A stretch of DNA of 64,000 nucleotides. It comes from an uncultured Bacteroidales bacterium (GTDB lineage Bacteria; Bacteroidota; Bacteroidia; Bacteroidales; Bacteroidaceae). Within the stretch, counting starts at the first letter, position 1. Each line of letters opens with the position of its first letter. The notes under the pieces are model-generated. The model did not search any database. It was not told the DNA's origin and was given only the letters and a program-made list of their open reading frames with translations. The position numbers were made by a program, and so were the translations under genes. The DNA lies in the NCBI GenBank assembly GCA_902775375.1, contig CACYLU010000004.1:16265-80264 (forward strand), in the 5' to 3' direction. Of this stretch, positions 14,634-54,113 are shown piece by piece.

Positions 14634-14660
14634 GGTAATTAGTAATAATGGTTTATATTA

Positions 14661-14668
14661 CAAAGATA
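14661..14668 (-). promoter_or_regulatory. -7 promoter box (TATCTTTG) for GH97
   Basis: Plus strand CAAAGATA, 28 nt upstream of the start. Confidence 0.6.
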
Positions 14669-14707
14669 GTACAAGTTGGCGAAAGAACAAAGAAAGTATG
14701 TCTTTTG

Positions 14708-15334
14708 TTACAGCAAGATAGTGAGAATGACGCTCCAGTGGGCTATGGCACCCAGTAAGACAAAGATGTGCCAGATGGCATGATAGTGTGGTTGCTTGTC
14801 GTGGGCATAGAAGTAGGTGCCAGCCGTGTAGAGAATACCTTCGGCAATGAGGAAGGTCAACGAGAGAGGCGAAAGCTTCTCCATTACCTTAGGGAATATA
14901 ATCAAAACACTCCATCCCATGACAAGATACATGGCTAGCGAGAGGCGTGGATGCTTGCCTATCGCCACTATCTTGGCAATGCTGCCTATCAGTGCTACAG
15001 CCCAAAGAAATCCGAAAACCAGCCACCCAAGCCAACCACCGATGACGCCCACGCAGATAGGAGTATAAGAGCAGGCTATCATCACGTAGATGCTGATATG
15101 GTCGCACTTGCGAAGTATATTCTTTGCTACGCCAGGTCGAACCCAGTGGTAGATGGTACTGGATAGGAACATCAAAAACATACCAACGATAAAGAAGAAA
15201 ACACCAAACGCCATCTGCCAACTGGTATTGATGGCAGGCCACACCATCCAAATGGATGAGAGTGCGAAGATCACTCCAATGAGGTGTGTCCAGGTGTTGC
15301 CGAGCTCTTCTTTAGAAGGTAGAAATTGTCTCAT
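14708..15334 (-). CDS. PAQR/hemolysin III family (TrhA/YqfA-like) membrane protein
   Basis: EELGNTWTH, SSTIYH, RKCDHISIY..IACSYTP and HAIWHIFVLLGAIAH metal-binding motifs, about 7 TM helices. ATGA overlap with the upstream gene. Confidence 0.92.
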   Translation of the reverse strand: MRQFLPSKEELGNTWTHLIGVIFALSSIWMVWPAINTSWQMAFGVFFFIVGMFLMFLSSTIYHWVRPGVAKNILRKCDHISIYVMIACSYTPICVGVIGGWLGWLVFGFLWAVALIGSIAKIVAIGKHPRLSLAMYLVMGWSVLIIFPKVMEKLSPLSLTFLIAEGILYTAGTYFYAHDKQPHYHAIWHIFVLLGAIAHWSVILTILL

Positions 15335-17808
15335 GCGTGTAGTCGTTCGTTGATGACTTGTTTTACTTGATTGGCTATTTCCTCGTAGGTAAGGTTGCTG
15401 TCTGGTAGGATAGGAGGCAGGTAGTCTATCACTATCTTATGAGGTGATGGGAAGCGCTTAGAGCGAGGCAGTGCCTCAAAAGCGCCTTTGATACATACGG
15501 GTACCACAGGTACTTGCAGTTCCTTGCTCAAGATGGCGAAAGTCTTTTTGAAATCCCCCAACTCACCTGCGTTTGTACGTCGTCCTTCTGGGAAGATAAC
15601 CAAATTCTTGCCTTGCTTAAGTACCTCACCCAGCTTTTGGATAGAGTCGCGCAAGTTGCTTCGCTCCATCAGGATGATGTTGTTGTTACGGGCGTAAGCT
15701 TTACGCAGTTTTCCTCGCATATGCTCCTCAGTGGCATAGTAAAATGTGTCCTTCATGACGGGAGTAGGTAGGGTACACGATACCAACGGACCATCAAGGA
15801 AACTCTGATGGTTGGGCGCGATAATCATCGGGCCATTGGCTGGTATGTTCTCCACTCCATTGATGCTGAGTCTATTATATGATTTGTAGAATCCACGAAT
15901 GATGGTATTGCCCAGGGTCATGTATCGATTGCCGTGAGGCAACTCCAACTTGGAAGAGTCTGCGTGCAGGAACTGATGCCAATCTTCTCCTTCTACCTCC
16001 ATGCGTGTCTTGTTTTCCTCTAAATATTCTGCCAATGCCTGAATACTCTTATATTTTGGCATATCGGCAGCATTGACTTTCGTGCCGAATGTTTGCTGGA
16101 TGAACCCTTCCATTGCCACCATATCCAATGAATCGAAAGCCAGATCTGTTTCAATATGGTCAGTTGGAAGTATTTTGATACCCTTCTCGCTCTCGATGTA
16201 TTTTTTCAGTATTTGGTATTCTTCGGAGGTAGGCTCTTCAACAGGTTTCTTTTCTTGTGGGACAGGTGGGTTGTCTGCACCTGCCAGTATGTCTTTCAGC
16301 TTAAAGCGCTGCAACTTCTCCAGTTTGGTGCGTGGCAAGTCGTTGTGATATACAAACAGACTCATTAGCTTCTTGTAGTTCGTAACAGTAAGATTATAGG
16401 GCTCGAGTACCTCACGTTTAAGTGTTTCTTCTATTTCAGCATCAGACAAGCCTTTTGCCCACGTCTCGTTTGGCACAATGATGGCTCGCAACATGTCGCC
16501 ATCCTGCACTACGGCAGCTTCTTTCACTCGCTCTGAGTATTTCTCTAACTTGTATTCTATCTCGTTAGGTTGCACATTCTTGCCATTAGAGAGCACAATA
16601 ATTTCCTTGCTACGACCAGTAATGTAGATACGGCCTTTCTCGTCCAAATGCCCCAAGTCGCCTGTATGTAGGAATCCATTGGTGTCGATGACAGCAGCTG
16701 TCTCTTCTGGACGGTTATAGTAGCCCTGCATGACATTGGGTCCTTTGGCGCATATCTCTCCATTAATAATCTTTACTTCTTCTTCCTTTAAAGGCAAACC
16801 CACACAGTTGGGAATCAAGTCTCCTGGACGTGTGAAGGCTATCATCGGAGCGCATTCAGTCATGCCGTAGCCTTCCAAAAGTTCCAAACCTAAGGTTTGC
16901 AAACCCAATGCAATTTCACGATCTAATGCAGCACCACCACTTACTAAATATTGTATGTGCCCACCCATCTTTTCGTGTACGGCCTTGAAGATGATGCGTG
17001 AAAGCTTCTTGTTATTGATTTTGGCACAGAGGTTGAAAAGGCCTCTTGTCAAAGCTGTTGCATCTATCTTCTTCTTAATACCATCATAGAGTGTTTGCCA
17101 TAGACGAGGAACACCAATCATGATAGAAATCTGTCCACGCTGGAGTGTGTCCATGATGTCTGGTCCAGACATCGTAGGGCAAATGGCCACACCACCGCCT
17201 ACATAAAGAGGCATCACAACCGAACCTACCAATGGTAACACATGGTGTAATGGCAGCAAGATCAGGGTACGGCTATTTTCTGTGAAGATAGGCACATCTT
17301 CAGATACAGCTCGTATGTTAACAAGAATATTGCGGAACGATAACATCACTCCCTTTGGCGAACCTGTAGTACCAGATGTATAGATGATAAGTGCGGTATC
17401 TTCTTCATCATAGCTGATGTTGGCTTTTTCAACATGGTCGATAGGGTCAGTTTCATGGTCCTCAATGAGATGAATGTCTGCTTTGTGTCCTGTTTCTTTC
17501 AGAGCTGCTTTCGCAACCTCCAACTTCTTGCGGGTGGTCCATATGCACAGAGGGTGACAGTCGTTGATGATGTATGCAACATCACTCACTGTGGAAGATG
17601 CATCCACAGGCACAGCGACACCATGATTAGCCCAGATTGAATAAAAAGCAAAAATCCAGCCTGCACAATTGTCTGCAAATATAAGCGTCTTTTCTCCTTT
17701 TTCCTTAGGTGAAAACTGGCTATATATAAAAACGCGTTGAAGTAATTCTGAATAGGTTATATTGCGTTCGCCTGCAATAATCGCAATCTTGTTGGAATCT
17801 TTTAACAT
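15331..17808 (-). CDS. Trifunctional acyl-adenylation (FadD-like) / acyl carrier / PlsC-type acyltransferase fusion
   Basis: AMP-binding motifs IIYTSGTTGSPKG, EGYGMTE and LHTGDLG...GRSKE. Phosphopantetheine site DLAFDSLDMV. Acyltransferase NHQSFLD (HX4D) and IFPEGRRT. Confidence 0.9.
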   Translation of the reverse strand: MLKDSNKIAIIAGERNITYSELLQRVFIYSQFSPKEKGEKTLIFADNCAGWIFAFYSIWANHGVAVPVDASSTVSDVAYIINDCHPLCIWTTRKKLEVAKAALKETGHKADIHLIEDHETDPIDHVEKANISYDEEDTALIIYTSGTTGSPKGVMLSFRNILVNIRAVSEDVPIFTENSRTLILLPLHHVLPLVGSVVMPLYVGGGVAICPTMSGPDIMDTLQRGQISIMIGVPRLWQTLYDGIKKKIDATALTRGLFNLCAKINNKKLSRIIFKAVHEKMGGHIQYLVSGGAALDREIALGLQTLGLELLEGYGMTECAPMIAFTRPGDLIPNCVGLPLKEEEVKIINGEICAKGPNVMQGYYNRPEETAAVIDTNGFLHTGDLGHLDEKGRIYITGRSKEIIVLSNGKNVQPNEIEYKLEKYSERVKEAAVVQDGDMLRAIIVPNETWAKGLSDAEIEETLKREVLEPYNLTVTNYKKLMSLFVYHNDLPRTKLEKLQRFKLKDILAGADNPPVPQEKKPVEEPTSEEYQILKKYIESEKGIKILPTDHIETDLAFDSLDMVAMEGFIQQTFGTKVNAADMPKYKSIQALAEYLEENKTRMEVEGEDWHQFLHADSSKLELPHGNRYMTLGNTIIRGFYKSYNRLSINGVENIPANGPMIIAPNHQSFLDGPLVSCTLPTPVMKDTFYYATEEHMRGKLRKAYARNNNIILMERSNLRDSIQKLGEVLKQGKNLVIFPEGRRTNAGELGDFKKTFAILSKELQVPVVPVCIKGAFEALPRSKRFPSPHKIVIDYLPPILPDSNLTYEEIANQVKQVINERLHA

Positions 17809-17849
17809 AATCTTTCTTTTAGTTAGCTAATCATGACGTTGTTAAAAAC

Positions 17850-17894
17850 AAAAAAAGCAATTAACATCTAAGCTTTATTAGATATCAATTGCTT
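17850..17894 (-). terminator. Probable terminator downstream of the tRNA-Tyr/tRNA-Gly pair
   Basis: Nested inverted repeats AAGCAATT/AATTGCTT and ATCTAA/TTAGAT, with an A7 run on the plus strand. Confidence 0.55.
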
Positions 17895-17901
17895 CATTTA
17901 G

Positions 17902-17974
17902 AGCGGAAGACGGGGCTCAAACCCGCGACCCTCAGCTTGGAAGGCTAATGCTCTATCAACTGAGCTACTTCCGC
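17902..17974 (-). tRNA. tRNA-Gly (TCC)
   Basis: Reverse complement GCGGAAGTAGCTCAGTTGATAGAGCATTAGCCTTCCAAGCTGAGGGTCGCGGGTTTGAGCCCCGTCTTCCGCT. Cloverleaf with anticodon loop CTTCCAA. Confidence 0.96.
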
Positions 17975-17996
17975 AAAATTCTTTGAATTTTACGGC

Positions 17997-18062
17997 ATTG
18001 TCAGGCTGCACTCGGCATAATCAAAAACAAGTTTTTGCTTCTGCCCTCGTTGGCACGACAAT
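17997..18062. repeat. Imperfect long hairpin in the tRNA spacer (candidate interspersed REP-like element)
   Basis: Nested inverted repeats ATTGTC/GACAAT, GGCA/TGCC and CAAAAAC/GTTTTTG. Confidence 0.45.
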
Positions 18063-18097
18063 TCCGCGATTTCGAAGAATAAATCTCCATTGTTTTG

Positions 18098-18180
18098 TGG
18101 GCAAAGATGGATTCGAACCACCGAAGGCGTACGCCAGCAGATTTACAGTCTGCCCCATTTGGCCACTCTGGTATTTGCCC
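18098..18180 (-). tRNA. tRNA-Tyr (GTA)
   Basis: Reverse complement GGGCAAATACCAGAGTGGCCAAATGGGGCAGACTGTAAATCTGCTGGCGTACGCCTTCGGTGGTTCGAATCCATCTTTGCCCA. Long variable arm, anticodon GTA. Confidence 0.97.
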
Positions 18181-38000: not shown

Positions 38001-38538
38001 AACTCTCAGGATGCTTTCCTTTGTAATCCTTGAAGTGTTGCTTTATTTCGATTATGTCTTTATCGTAGTCACCTGTAGGAATAAATGTTTTGGTGCATTC
38101 TACGATTTTCCTCTTATAATCAAGACCAAATAACATTATAGGTACATGGGCATTTAGGGCGATATAGTAGAAACCTTTTTTCCACTGCGGGTTAGCTTTT
38201 CGTGTACCTTCTGGTGTGATAGCAAGGTTTAGCTGTTTACGTTGGTTGAAAAGTGTCGCCAATTGTTCTGTCAGAGAAGTCTTCTTACTGCGATCTACAG
38301 GAATCCCTCCCATCCAGCGGAAAAAAATACCCAAAGGAAAGAAGAACCAGTCTTTTTTCATAAGAAAACTGGCTTCTCTTCCCAAAGCCCCCCATAGAAG
38401 TTTGCCAACAAACAAGTCCCAGTTGGATGTATGGGGGACTACACAGATAACACATTTGTCTTCAAGTGGGACGGTAAAGTTTGTGCTCCATCCCAGTAGC
38501 TTGTAATAGATAAAACTGAACAGTTTTTTCTTCATCAA
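37990..38538 (-). CDS. PlsC-family acyltransferase
   Basis: VPHTSNWD (HX4D), GGIPVDRS, ITPEGTR, WKKGFYYIA. Confidence 0.9.
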   Translation of the reverse strand: MMKKKLFSFIYYKLLGWSTNFTVPLEDKCVICVVPHTSNWDLFVGKLLWGALGREASFLMKKDWFFFPLGIFFRWMGGIPVDRSKKTSLTEQLATLFNQRKQLNLAITPEGTRKANPQWKKGFYYIALNAHVPIMLFGLDYKRKIVECTKTFIPTGDYDKDIIEIKQHFKDYKGKHPESFAI

Positions 38539-52828: not shown

Positions 52829-52925
52829 TATGATTATTCACTTTTTTATAAAAAGTGTGCAATGATACAAACTATTTTTTGTAAATTTGCAGCCTTGTTT
52901 AAACGATAATAAAATTTTTTTAAAA

Positions 52926-54113
52926 ATGAGTTTACTATCAGAGAAGTTAGGTAAATACCAAGAACCTCAGTATTACAAGGCTAAAGGCGTCTACCCCTAT
53001 TTCCGAGAAATTGACAGTCACCAGGGCACCGAAGTCATGATGAGCGGTAAAAAAGTCCTAATGTTTGGATCTAACGCTTATACGGGCTTAACTTATGACC
53101 AAAGAATTATTGATGCTTCAATCGAAGCAACAAAAAAATATGGTACAGGATGTGCTGGCTCACGTTTGTTAAATGGAACACTTGATATACACGTTCAACT
53201 TGAAAAAGAACTTGCAGCGTTCTTAGGTAAAGACGAAGCATTGTGCTTCTCAACAGGTTTCACTGTAAATGAGGGTGTTATCCCCCAATTGGTAGGACGT
53301 GGTGACTATATTATATGCGACGACCGTGATCATGCTTCGATTGTTGATGGCCGTCGTCTTTCTTTTGCTACCCAACTTAAATACAAGCATAATGATATGG
53401 AAGCATTGGAGAAGGAACTCAAGAAGTGCGAACCCAATGCGATTAAATTGATTGTGGTTGATGGCGTTTTCTCTATGGAAGGCGATTTGGCCAATCTGCC
53501 TGAAATCATTCGATTGAAAAAGAAATATAATGCTTGTGTATATGTAGATGAGGCTCATGGCATTGGCGTGTTTGGTAAGCAAGGACGTGGTGTGTGCGAT
53601 TATTTTGGTGTGACAGATGAAGTGGATCTTATAATGGGTACATTTAGTAAGTCACTTGCTTCCCTTGGAGGTTTTGTCGCTTCTGAATCTGCTATTATTA
53701 ATGCTTTACGTCATAGTGCACGTTCATATATTTTCCAGGCAAGTAGTACTCCTGCAGCTACTGCCGCCACTCTTGAAGCTCTGCATATTATTCAGAATGA
53801 GCCTGAGCGTCAAGAAAAACTTTGGGAAATCACTAACTATGCTTTAGAGAAGTTCCGTGATGCAGGCTTTGAGATTGGCGATACCCAGTCACCTATTATA
53901 CCTTTGTATGTTCGTGATACTTACAAAACCTTTGCTGTTACAAAATTGGCTTTTGATGAGGGTATCTTCATTAATCCTGTAATACCACCTGCTTGTGCTC
54001 CACAAGACACTTTGGTGCGTGTTGCACTAATGGCTACTCATACAAAGGAACAGATAGACTTTGCGGTGGATCATTTATTGAAATGTTTCCGCTCATTAGA
54101 CATCATTCAGTAA
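52926..54113 (+). CDS. spt: Serine palmitoyltransferase (alpha-oxoamine synthase family), sphingolipid synthesis
   Basis: KAKGVYPYFR, MFGSN.Y.GLT, GTGCAGSRLLNGT, DHASIVDG, DEAHG, GTFSKSLA. N-terminus resembles Bacteroides SPT rather than BioF. Start placed at M14 after the -7 box TAAATTTG (52882-52889). Confidence 0.85.
   Translation: MSLLSEKLGKYQEPQYYKAKGVYPYFREIDSHQGTEVMMSGKKVLMFGSNAYTGLTYDQRIIDASIEATKKYGTGCAGSRLLNGTLDIHVQLEKELAAFLGKDEALCFSTGFTVNEGVIPQLVGRGDYIICDDRDHASIVDGRRLSFATQLKYKHNDMEALEKELKKCEPNAIKLIVVDGVFSMEGDLANLPEIIRLKKKYNACVYVDEAHGIGVFGKQGRGVCDYFGVTDEVDLIMGTFSKSLASLGGFVASESAIINALRHSARSYIFQASSTPAATAATLEALHIIQNEPERQEKLWEITNYALEKFRDAGFEIGDTQSPIIPLYVRDTYKTFAVTKLAFDEGIFINPVIPPACAPQDTLVRVALMATHTKEQIDFAVDHLLKCFRSLDIIQ

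What the first reader, a model, noticed from the sequence alone, without database searches (positions are those of the whole stretch)
14708..17808. Self-contained acyl-capture enzyme (adenylation-ACP-PlsC) coupled to a PAQR/HlyIII protein
Seen: one 825-aa chain carries A-domain motifs, a DSL phosphopantetheine site and an HX4D acyltransferase. Its stop overlaps (ATGA) the start of a PAQR gene with intact His/Asp metal motifs. Established: E. coli Aas has the reverse order and no covalent carrier domain. PAQRs belong to the CREST superfamily with alkaline ceramidases and are linked to membrane fluidity control. This organism encodes SPT, and GlpF/GlpK supply G3P. Inference: a lipid-remodelling pair in which the PAQR senses or hydrolyses an amide lipid and the fusion reactivates the free fatty acid and transfers it to a lysolipid, sphingoid base or amino-lipid acceptor, bypassing CoA.
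Basis: partly seen in the sequence, partly recalled or inferred. Interest (0 to 1): 0.6.

Follow-up and report, generated by a model that had tools for sequence, protein, structure and literature searches.

The report
Fatty-acid ligase–carrier–acyltransferase fusion beside PAQR
A rumen Bacteroidales bacterium encodes one protein that should activate a free fatty acid, hold it on its own carrier domain and pass it to a lipid; it belongs to a fairly common, uncharacterised family related to myxobacterial ElbD, and its tight link to a PAQR/TrhA membrane gene holds only in one small lineage.

Summary
Window 15331-17808 (-) encodes an 825-aa AMP-binding / PP-binding / PlsC-type acyltransferase protein, and its stop overlaps (ATGA) the start of a 208-aa HlyIII/TrhA gene at 14708-15334.

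All catalytic residues are invariant in 41 homologues that are 40-61% identical. These are the P-loop Lys152, A10 Lys498, the carrier Asp-Ser-Leu 559-561, His667/Asp672 and FPEG-R.

The protein is not a rearranged Aas. It aligns collinearly (30% identity, E 1e-90) with a protein of ElbD architecture and lacks only the N-terminal reductase domain. The literature already notes such reductase-less ElbD-like homologues in anaerobes, without any biochemistry.

The fusion is patchy:
- 31 of 250 order-level genomes
- 15 of 200 family genomes
- 0 of 9 same-genus genomes

The PAQR pairing is narrow:
- It occurs in 10 of about 128 loci, all within one subclade.
- 11 of 15 fusion-bearing family genomes show no TrhA at all.
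- TrhA is nevertheless the only recurrent neighbour, and one locus carries a non-orthologous TrhA in the same slot.

There is no link to sphingolipid synthesis: SPT is present in 186 of 200 family genomes. This scan has flagged the same fusion at least 8 times on other DNA.

Verdict: an uncharacterised variant of a known kind. It is probably a CoA-independent fatty-acid salvage and lysolipid reacylation enzyme. The functional coupling to the PAQR is unproven.

The parts
15331..17808 (-). Gene for the 825-aa tri-domain protein (ligase, carrier, acyltransferase), stop codon included
   Evidence: ORF, translation, Pfam domains. AlphaFold2 model has mean pLDDT 85.5.
16279..17808 (-). ANL adenylate-forming (fatty-acid ligase) domain, residues 1-510. 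P-loop 143-153, TGD 382-384, A10 Lys498.
   Evidence: Pfam AMP-binding plus AMP-binding_C_3. [quoted passage not shown] The fold matches 4CL, MenE, MatB and EntE-EntB.
16009..16236 (-). Carrier (ACP-like) domain, residues about 525-600. The phosphopantetheine serine Ser560 is the codon at 16129-16131.
   Evidence: PF00550 at 23.0 bits against a cut-off of 20.8. It aligns to solved ACPs with DSLD on the NSLD motif. D559, S560 and L561 are invariant in 41 homologues. The model shows four helices with Ser560 at the N-terminus of helix II.
15334..15891 (-). PlsC/LPLAT-type acyltransferase domain, residues 640-825. His667-x4-Asp672, FPEG-R 739-744.
   Evidence: PF01553 at 90 bits. Thermotoga PlsC 5KYM matches at E 4e-19 over chain residues 56-236. 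H667, D672, F739, P740, E741, G742 and R744 are invariant.
15331..15334 (-). ATGA stop/start overlap between the fusion gene and trhA
   Evidence: Read directly. Other paired loci have overlaps of 4-17 bp or gaps of 15-27 bp. RNA-library contigs bridge it in two studies.
14708..15334 (-). trhA: 208-aa PAQR/HlyIII seven-helix membrane protein ('type I' TrhA of this family)
   Evidence: Pfam HlyIII at 129 bits and NCBIfam TrhA at 193 bits over a cut-off of 80. 46 hydrophobic 19-residue windows. Metal motifs are intact.

Best explanation
The 825-aa protein is a soluble or peripheral, self-contained fatty-acid salvage enzyme of the ElbD-like (reductase-less) family. It works like E. coli Aas with the carrier hard-wired into the chain.

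Proposed steps:
1. The ANL domain adenylates a free long-chain fatty acid.
2. It thioesterifies the acyl group onto the phosphopantetheine arm of its own carrier domain (Ser560). The genome's single Sfp-type transferase would install that arm.
3. The PlsC-type domain (His667/Asp672) transfers the acyl group in cis to a hydroxyl of a lysolipid acceptor. The acceptor is most likely a lysophospholipid.
4. The result is incorporation of free fatty acid, abundant in the rumen, without CoA or free ACP.

It is an accessory gene that is patchily distributed in Bacteroidales. In this lineage it is co-transcribed with trhA, but it does not depend on TrhA.

Shown: domain set, intact and invariant catalytic residues, carrier fold, homology, distribution and operon junction.
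Inferred: fatty-acid substrate, in-cis transfer and the identity of the acceptor.
For: - Domains and motifs.
- All three active sites and the carrier serine are invariant in 41 homologues at 40-61% identity.
- The confident model has a four-helix carrier with Ser560 at helix II.
- The A-domain scores best with long-chain fatty-acid ligase families. It carries a FadD-like signature around TGD (read; the comparison with FadD is from memory).
- The acyltransferase part scores best with the Aas-type acyl-ACP--phospholipid O-acyltransferase and AGPAT models and with Thermotoga PlsC.
- It aligns collinearly over 806 residues, E 1e-90, with a protein of FAR-ACS-ACP-AT architecture, including the DLAFDSL site. 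For ElbD, the ACS and ACP activities were confirmed in vitro (PMC9131029).
- One Sfp/AcpT-like phosphopantetheinyl transferase is present in the genome.
- There is no transmembrane segment outside the buried ANL core.
- The gene stands alone in variable contexts, as expected for a self-sufficient enzyme.
- It occurs without TrhA in most lineages.
- Bacteroidetes are known to activate exogenous fatty acids to acyl-ACP (AfAas1 and AfAas2; PMC10522932).
- RNA-library contigs cover both genes.
Against: - There is no biochemical datum for any reductase-less member.
- For ElbD itself, no acyltransferase activity could be shown in vitro (PMC9131029).
- The acceptor cannot be read from the sequence, and the acyltransferase domain reaches no curated NCBIfam cut-off.
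- The PP-binding score is marginal (23.0 against 20.8).
- The two-helix membrane motif that precedes the core in Thermotoga PlsC is only partly present. The alignment starts at chain residue 56, and the model has one helix, 629-644. Access to membrane lysolipids is therefore unproven.
- The patchy distribution shows that the function is dispensable.
Confidence: 0.6

Rival explanations
1. Functional pair. TrhA, a PAQR/CREST-type zinc hydrolase, cleaves a membrane lipid (amide or ester). The fusion then re-activates the released fatty acid, or re-acylates the lysolipid. Together they would form a Lands-cycle-like remodelling operon.
For: - The junctions are tight (4-17 bp overlaps or gaps of 27 bp or less) in all 10 paired loci.
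- The pair persists while the outer flanks change.
- TrhA is the only recurrent neighbour among 128 loci in 54 lineages, and it is always at +1 on the same strand.
- Locus L083 has a TrhA of the other clade (34% identical to the window's, 48-59% to type II) in the same slot.
- RNA-library contigs bridge the junction in two studies.
- The E. coli and B. subtilis trhA mutants show small fatty-acid changes (PMC9017321).
Against: - All paired loci lie in one 32-row clade, and 19 rows of that clade are unpaired.
- No pairing was found in the roughly 96 loci outside that clade.
- 11 of 15 fusion-bearing family genomes have no TrhA hit, against 70 of 185 genomes without the fusion that do, so there is no genome-level co-occurrence.
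- Type I trhA stands alone beside a flavin reductase, a C-N hydrolase and RibF in kin.
- No hydrolase activity has been shown for any bacterial TrhA (PMC9017321).
- SPT is nearly universal in the family while the fusion is rare.
Confidence: 0.15
2. ElbD-like role in ether-lipid or plasmalogen precursor synthesis. The acyltransferase domain would act like GNPAT/AGPAT on DHAP or alkyl-glycerol-phosphate, feeding an ether-lipid route.
For: - It is collinear with an ElbD-architecture protein.
- ElbD is required for alkyl and vinyl ether lipids in Myxococcus (PMC9131029).
- Many anaerobes make plasmalogens (general knowledge).
Against: - The FAR/NAD_binding_4 reductase domain is absent (compare).
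- No elb-type neighbours were found.
- Pontiella carries elbD homologues, and no ether lipids were detected there (PMC11868695).
- The known anaerobic plasmalogen route does not use such an enzyme (from memory).
Confidence: 0.08
3. The enzyme builds a non-phospholipid product. The acyl-S-carrier would be delivered to an amino-lipid, sphingoid base, glycolipid or lipid A-type acceptor. Alternatively it is mainly an acyl-CoA synthetase whose downstream domains are accessory.
For: - The acyltransferase domain also gives a weak match to the OlsF ornithine-lipid synthase model (E 7e-7).
- Bacteroidales make glycine lipids and sphingolipids (general knowledge; SPT).
- The acceptor specificity cannot be read from the sequence.
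Against: - The best acyltransferase matches are phospholipid O-acyltransferases.
- There is no biosynthetic cluster around the gene in any lineage.
- Its distribution is unrelated to SPT.
- The invariant carrier serine argues against a plain CoA ligase.
Confidence: 0.12

Closest known systems
ElbD of Myxococcus xanthus (multidomain ether-lipid enzyme; Lorenzen et al. 2014, reviewed in PMC9131029)
   Same: The order acyl-CoA-synthetase-like ligase, ACP, then AGPAT-like acyltransferase is the same in one chain. The window protein aligns collinearly with a protein of this architecture (30% identity over 806 residues, E 1e-90, with an identical DLAFDSL carrier site). The review states that reductase-less ElbD-like homologues exist in anaerobes and pathogens.
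   Different: It has no N-terminal FAR/NAD_binding_4 reductase domain, no elb operon partners and no evidence for ether lipids.
E. coli Aas (bifunctional 2-acyl-GPE acyltransferase / acyl-ACP synthetase; NCBIfam NF005959) and the LplT-Aas fusions (NF006386)
   Same: It combines an ANL fatty-acid ligase with a PlsC-type HX4D acyltransferase. An acyl-carrier thioester is the presumed intermediate. The acyltransferase part scores best with the Aas-type model.
   Different: The domain order is reversed. It has a covalent carrier domain instead of bound free ACP. Its scores are far below the curated cut-offs (138 against 886, and 199 against 1221). The ligase part is nearer to FadD-type families than to the Aas ligase (231 against 126 bits). 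It has no membrane segment.
Soluble acyl-ACP synthetases AasS, AasC, AasN and AfAas1/2 (PMC10522932, PMC12086093)
   Same: They activate exogenous fatty acid onto a phosphopantetheine thiol without CoA. AfAas1/2 show that this route exists in Bacteroidetes.
   Different: Those enzymes are single-domain and load free ACP in trans. Here the carrier and the consuming acyltransferase are fused.
TrhA (YqfA/YplQ), the bacterial PAQR (PMC9017321), and eukaryotic AdipoR/PAQR
   Same: The downstream gene passes the TrhA equivalog cut-off and keeps the His/Asp/His-x3-His metal site.
   Different: The reported bacterial phenotype is disturbed membrane potential with only subtle fatty-acid changes, and no change in fluidity. 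No enzymatic activity is known. The window's TrhA belongs to a minority clade (type I), 29-39% identical to the TrhA of the other same-genus genomes.

Membership tests
Aas (NF005959, bifunctional acyl-ACP--phospholipid O-acyltransferase / long-chain-fatty-acid--ACP ligase) | Acyltransferase N-terminal, ligase C-terminal | tested here: not met
   The acyltransferase of the window protein (residues 640-779) aligns to model positions 5-142, and the ligase to 481-649. The order is reversed.
Aas (NF005959, bifunctional acyl-ACP--phospholipid O-acyltransferase / long-chain-fatty-acid--ACP ligase) | Whole-protein score over the curated cut-off | tested here: not met
   138 bits against a cut-off of 886.
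Aas (NF005959, bifunctional acyl-ACP--phospholipid O-acyltransferase / long-chain-fatty-acid--ACP ligase) | Uses non-covalently bound free ACP and acylates 2-acyl-lyso-PE | not testable with these tools
   The protein has its own PP-binding domain. The acceptor is unknown.
ElbD-type multidomain enzyme | Collinear ligase, ACP and AGPAT-like acyltransferase in one chain | tested here: met
   BLASTP gives 30% identity over 806 residues, E 1e-90, to a 1600-aa protein with NAD_binding_4 + AMP-binding + PP-binding + Acyltransferase.
ElbD-type multidomain enzyme | N-terminal FAR-like reductase domain (PF07993) | tested here: not met
   There is no such domain. The protein starts directly with the ligase.
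ElbD-type multidomain enzyme | elb operon context (elbB, elbC, elbE) | tested here: not met
   The neighbours are tRNAs, ribH, trhA and GH97. No conserved neighbour other than trhA occurs in 128 loci.
ElbD-type multidomain enzyme | Required for alkyl/vinyl ether lipid formation | not testable with these tools
   This needs lipidomics of a mutant.
ANL adenylate-forming enzymes (PF00501) | P-loop (T/S)SGTTGxPKG, TGD and the A10 lysine | tested here: met
   206 bits against a cut-off of 29.9. Y143-G149, K152, G153, G383, D384 and K498 are invariant, and T382 is present in at least 90% of the 41 homologues.
Fatty acyl-AMP ligases (FAAL) | Insertion of about 20 residues in the N-terminal domain that blocks CoA use (feature recalled from the literature) | tested here: not met
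   Residues 5-364 align to profile positions 9-384 of PF00501 with no room for an extra insertion. The FAAL model NF006624 scores 125 bits against 231 for a FadD-type model.
Carrier proteins (PF00550, PP-binding) | Four-helix bundle with the (D/N)S(L) serine at the start of helix II | tested here: met
   23.0 bits against 20.8. It aligns to solved ACPs. D559, S560 and L561 are invariant. The model has helices 529-542, 560-574, 580-585 and 589-599. The modification itself is not testable here.
PlsC/LPLAT acyltransferases (PF01553) | HX4D catalytic dyad and the FPEGTR block | tested here: met
   90 bits against 23. H667, D672 and F739-G742, R744 are invariant. Homology to Thermotoga PlsC 5KYM, E 4e-19.
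TrhA / PAQR (NF011669, PF03006) | Score over the equivalog cut-off, seven hydrophobic helices, His/Asp/HxxxH metal site | tested here: met
   193 bits against 80. H17, S59, H63 and H185 are near-invariant.

The most novel reading that the evidence does not exclude
In one Prevotella-type lineage, the ElbD-like ligase-carrier-acyltransferase and a PAQR/TrhA form a genuine two-gene deacylation-reacylation (Lands-cycle-like) module. TrhA would be a zinc-dependent lipid hydrolase that produces the lysolipid, or the free fatty acid, that the fusion re-uses. The capture of two non-orthologous TrhA types in the same slot would then reflect selection. The operon would give the first biochemical handle on what bacterial PAQRs do.
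Probability: 0.15. Interest if true: 0.65.

Novelty: new variant of a known kind. Interest (0 to 1): 0.38.

Why it matters
Rumen and gut Bacteroidales live among abundant free fatty acids. A single-chain enzyme that puts them into membrane lipids without CoA or free ACP would be a distinct salvage route beside the AasS-type enzymes known in Bacteroidetes.

Fatty-acid salvage can bypass inhibitors of fatty-acid synthesis (PMC12086093). The route also bears on how diet shapes bacterial membranes.

The family is sizeable: about 150 clusters at 50% identity carry the carrier-acyltransferase part. It is annotated only as 'AMP-binding protein' and has no biochemistry. Metagenome surveys count ElbD homologues as ether-lipid markers (PMC11868695), which reductase-less members like this one may not be.

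The limited but non-random association with TrhA offers a concrete, testable entry point to the unknown molecular function of bacterial PAQRs.

Tried and rejected
The context of the 70-79% identical database proteins was taken from a metagenome scan instead.
Only about six fused loci with organism names came back, so the taxonomic range outside Bacteroidota rests on thin evidence: one Nitrosomonas MAG locus (L088) and an ESM-Atlas cluster labelled Fusobacteriota.
- **Literature searches** for a characterised reductase-less member found nothing.
- **Radka et al. 2020** (PMC7176543) is not held.
- **A second 'recurrent neighbour' cluster** turned out to be sigma-54 response regulators at +2/-2. 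This is a large paralogous family, and I read the recurrence as chance.
- **Rearranged Aas** was rejected on scores and on the ligase's affinity to FadD-type models.
- **Sphingolipid link** was rejected on distribution.
- **Horizontal transfer by composition** was not supported. The GC content of the pair is like that of its surroundings.
- **RNA-library coverage is partial and contig-based.** Uncovered parts and depths were not used. The bridging contigs are only weak support for co-transcription, because DNA can be present in such libraries.
Full report
**1. The observation**

The sequence ...CGC ATG A GA... shows that the TGA stop of the first overlaps the ATG of the second.

Pfam places four domains on the long protein, all over their gathering scores:
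- AMP-binding, residues 5-364
- AMP-binding_C_3, residues 402-498
- PP-binding, residues 546-596
- Acyltransferase PF01553, residues 648-774

The short protein is HlyIII. It passes the NCBIfam equivalog cut-off for the 'PAQR family membrane homeostasis protein TrhA' (193 bits against 80). Its PAQR metal motifs are intact.

**2. Integrity of the three modules**

I aligned 41 full-length homologues taken from genomes of the same family and order, at 40-61% identity to the window protein. The following are invariant:
- the P-loop (Y143-G149, K152, G153)
- G383 and D384 of the TGD motif (T382 is conserved in at least 90%)
- the A10 lysine K498
- the carrier D559-S560-L561
- the HX4D dyad H667/D672
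- the FPEG-R block

AlphaFold2 on this alignment gives mean pLDDT 85.5. Between the ligase and the acyltransferase it models a four-helix bundle with Ser560 at the N-terminus of helix II, as in canonical ACPs.

By sequence, the carrier segment aligns to solved ACPs with DSLD on their NSLD motif. The C-terminal domain aligns to Thermotoga PlsC 5KYM at E 4e-19. Foldseek finds ANL enzymes and adenylation-carrier didomains (EntE-EntB, McyG A-PCP), but no solved protein has all three parts.

The only strongly hydrophobic windows lie in the buried ANL core, so the protein is soluble or peripheral. The genome has a single phosphopantetheinyl transferase. It is of the Sfp/AcpT/HetI type (185 aa), the kind that serves carrier domains in multidomain proteins.

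**3. What it is related to**

No curated NCBIfam model is reached, and public records call the protein just 'AMP-binding protein'.

Against the E. coli Aas model, the acyltransferase part maps to the N-terminus and the ligase to the C-terminus. However, the scores are far below cut-off, and the ligase part scores higher with FadD-type long-chain ligase models (231 bits) than with the Aas ligase (126 bits) or the FAAL model (125 bits). It is therefore not a permuted Aas.

A search for longer relatives of the carrier-acyltransferase part returned a 1600-aa protein with NAD_binding_4 (FAR-like), AMP-binding, PP-binding and Acyltransferase domains. This is the domain set that the review PMC9131029 describes for Myxococcus ElbD. 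The window protein aligns with it collinearly over 806 residues (30% identity, E 1e-90), including an identical DLAFDSL carrier site.

The same review reports three relevant points:
- ElbD's ligase and ACP activities were confirmed in vitro.
- Its acyltransferase activity could not be shown.
- 'ElbD-like homologues' lacking the FAR domain occur in anaerobes, animal pathogens and extremophiles, with little or no lipid analysis.

The window protein is thus a member of this noted but uncharacterised reductase-less group.

HMMER with the carrier-acyltransferase part alone, against 1.84 billion representatives, finds 154 clusters at E<=1e-30. Most are 810-850 aa with the match at about 520-820, so this is a well-defined tri-domain family. 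An ESM-Atlas neighbour cluster is labelled Fusobacteriota, and one Nitrosomonas MAG carries a 25%-identical full-length relative.

**4. Distribution**

| Sample | Genomes with the full-length fusion |
|---|---|
| Phylum | about 10 of 300 |
| Order | 31 of 250 (E<=1e-100) |
| Family | 15 of 200 |
| Same genus | 0 of 9 |

The exact protein was nevertheless seen on 206 contigs of bovine and other gut metagenomes. It is an accessory gene.

**5. The pairing with TrhA**

I checked 128 loci that encode the fusion: 45 from genomes, 4 named MAG loci and 79 metagenome loci. Flanks were 1.5-3 kb. I scanned them with an HMM built from 31 TrhA sequences of both clades.

- TrhA lies immediately downstream on the same strand in 10 loci: the window, L163-L166 (fusion 78-79% identical), L083 (67%) and L037-L040 (59-61%).
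- It is absent from 10 loci at 71-75% identity, from L220 (59%), and from every locus at 56% or less.
- On a maximum-likelihood tree, all paired loci fall in one clade of 32 rows (SH-aLRT 99). That clade also holds 19 unpaired rows.
- In the family genomes, TrhA is found in 74 of 200, but in only 4 of the 15 that carry the fusion, and those 4 are exactly the genomes with adjacency.
- The same TrhA type occurs without the fusion in kin, next to a flavin reductase, a C-N hydrolase or RibF.

So the fusion does not need TrhA, and TrhA does not need the fusion.

**6. What speaks for a real, local coupling**

- Junctions in all paired loci are overlaps of 4-17 bp or gaps of 15-27 bp.
- The outer flanks differ even among 78-79% relatives, while the pair stays together.
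- When the 128 loci are collapsed to 54 lineages at 65% identity, TrhA is the only neighbour family that recurs in more than three lineages, and it is always at +1.
- The family has two TrhA clades. The window's (type I) is only 29-39% identical to the TrhA of the other same-genus genomes (type II). In L083, the gene after the fusion is a type II TrhA, 34% identical to the window's and 48-59% to other type II sequences. This is either a second origin of the adjacency or an in-place replacement. Either reading hints at selection, but it is a single case.
- Contigs from two metatranscriptome studies bridge the junction: 15091-15532, and 15191-15477 with no mismatch. This fits co-transcription but does not prove it.

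I rate a true functional module at about 0.15.

**7. No sphingolipid link**

The organism does encode SPT: window 52887-54113, 670 bits against a cut-off of 640. SPT is present in 186 of 200 family genomes, against 15 of 200 for the fusion. The fusion is therefore not part of the core sphingolipid pathway.

In E. coli and B. subtilis, TrhA loss disturbs membrane potential with only subtle fatty-acid changes and no effect on fluidity, and the mechanism is unknown (PMC9017321).

**8. Most likely mechanism**

The proposed path is:
1. free fatty acid plus ATP gives acyl-AMP;
2. the acyl group moves to a thioester on the Ser560 arm;
3. the PlsC-type domain transfers it in cis to a lysolipid hydroxyl.

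This is Aas-like chemistry with the carrier built in, independent of CoA and free ACP. The steps are inferred from domain identities and invariant residues. The fatty-acid substrate is inferred from family affinities. The acceptor is unknown.

Bacteroidetes are known to activate exogenous fatty acids onto ACP with soluble AfAas1 and AfAas2 (PMC10522932). The window genome has four further stand-alone ANL paralogues, so the fusion would be an additional dedicated route. Confidence is 0.6.

**9. Novelty and score**

The architecture and the existence of reductase-less homologues are in the literature. The biochemistry, the acceptor and the physiological role are not. This scan has noted the same fusion at least eight times in other genomes, once also overlapping a PAQR gene.

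I class it as a new variant of a known kind and give it interest 0.38. Most of that rests on the limited but non-random TrhA association as a possible handle on bacterial PAQR function.

Noticed in passing
window 17901-18180 (-): tRNA-Gly(tcc) and tRNA-Tyr(gta) lie on the same strand, 92 bp upstream of the fusion start. RNA-library contigs run from inside the fusion gene into tRNA-Gly (17475-17939) and on into tRNA-Tyr (16437-18164). In other contigs the 120-nt spacer between the two tRNAs is replaced by 2-26 other letters, so the hairpin-bearing spacer varies between strains.
   Followed up: partly
window 14636-14707: A TATCTTTG box, matching the Bacteroidetes -7 consensus TAnnTTTG as I recall it, sits about 30 bp before the GH97 start. 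GH97 therefore probably has its own promoter, and the fusion-trhA unit ends at 14708.
   Followed up: no
family genomes, loci L052-L081 and L083: There are two clearly separate TrhA clades in this bacterial family. Type I (the window's, 45-70% identical to it) is in a minority of genera. Type II (29-39% identical) is the one in the other same-genus genomes. The window genome has only type I.
   Followed up: partly
window 38134-38457 (-): A second, small PlsC-type acyltransferase (PF01553, 52 bits, 182-aa frame) lies in the window. A third weak hit is on contig 8. One of these is presumably the housekeeping PlsC.
   Followed up: no
window 52887-54113 (+): Serine palmitoyltransferase of the Bacteroidota type (NF047600, 670 bits against a cut-off of 640). 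It is present in 186 of 200 family genomes.
   Followed up: yes
protein P0123 (metagenome, 1628 aa): A predicted protein joins alpha-N-acetylglucosaminidase (NAGLU) domains to a fusion-type ligase and acyltransferase (48% identical over the C-terminal part). It is probably a merged gene call rather than a real fusion.
   Followed up: no
L088 (Nitrosomonas MAG) and L087 (uncultured bacterium): L088 holds a full-length but only 25%-identical relative in a betaproteobacterial MAG. L087 holds a relative that matches only the ligase plus carrier part (residues 15-602).
   Followed up: no
paired loci L163 and L165: TrhA is more conserved than the fusion among the nearest relatives: 91-93% against 78-79% identity to the window's proteins.
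   Followed up: no
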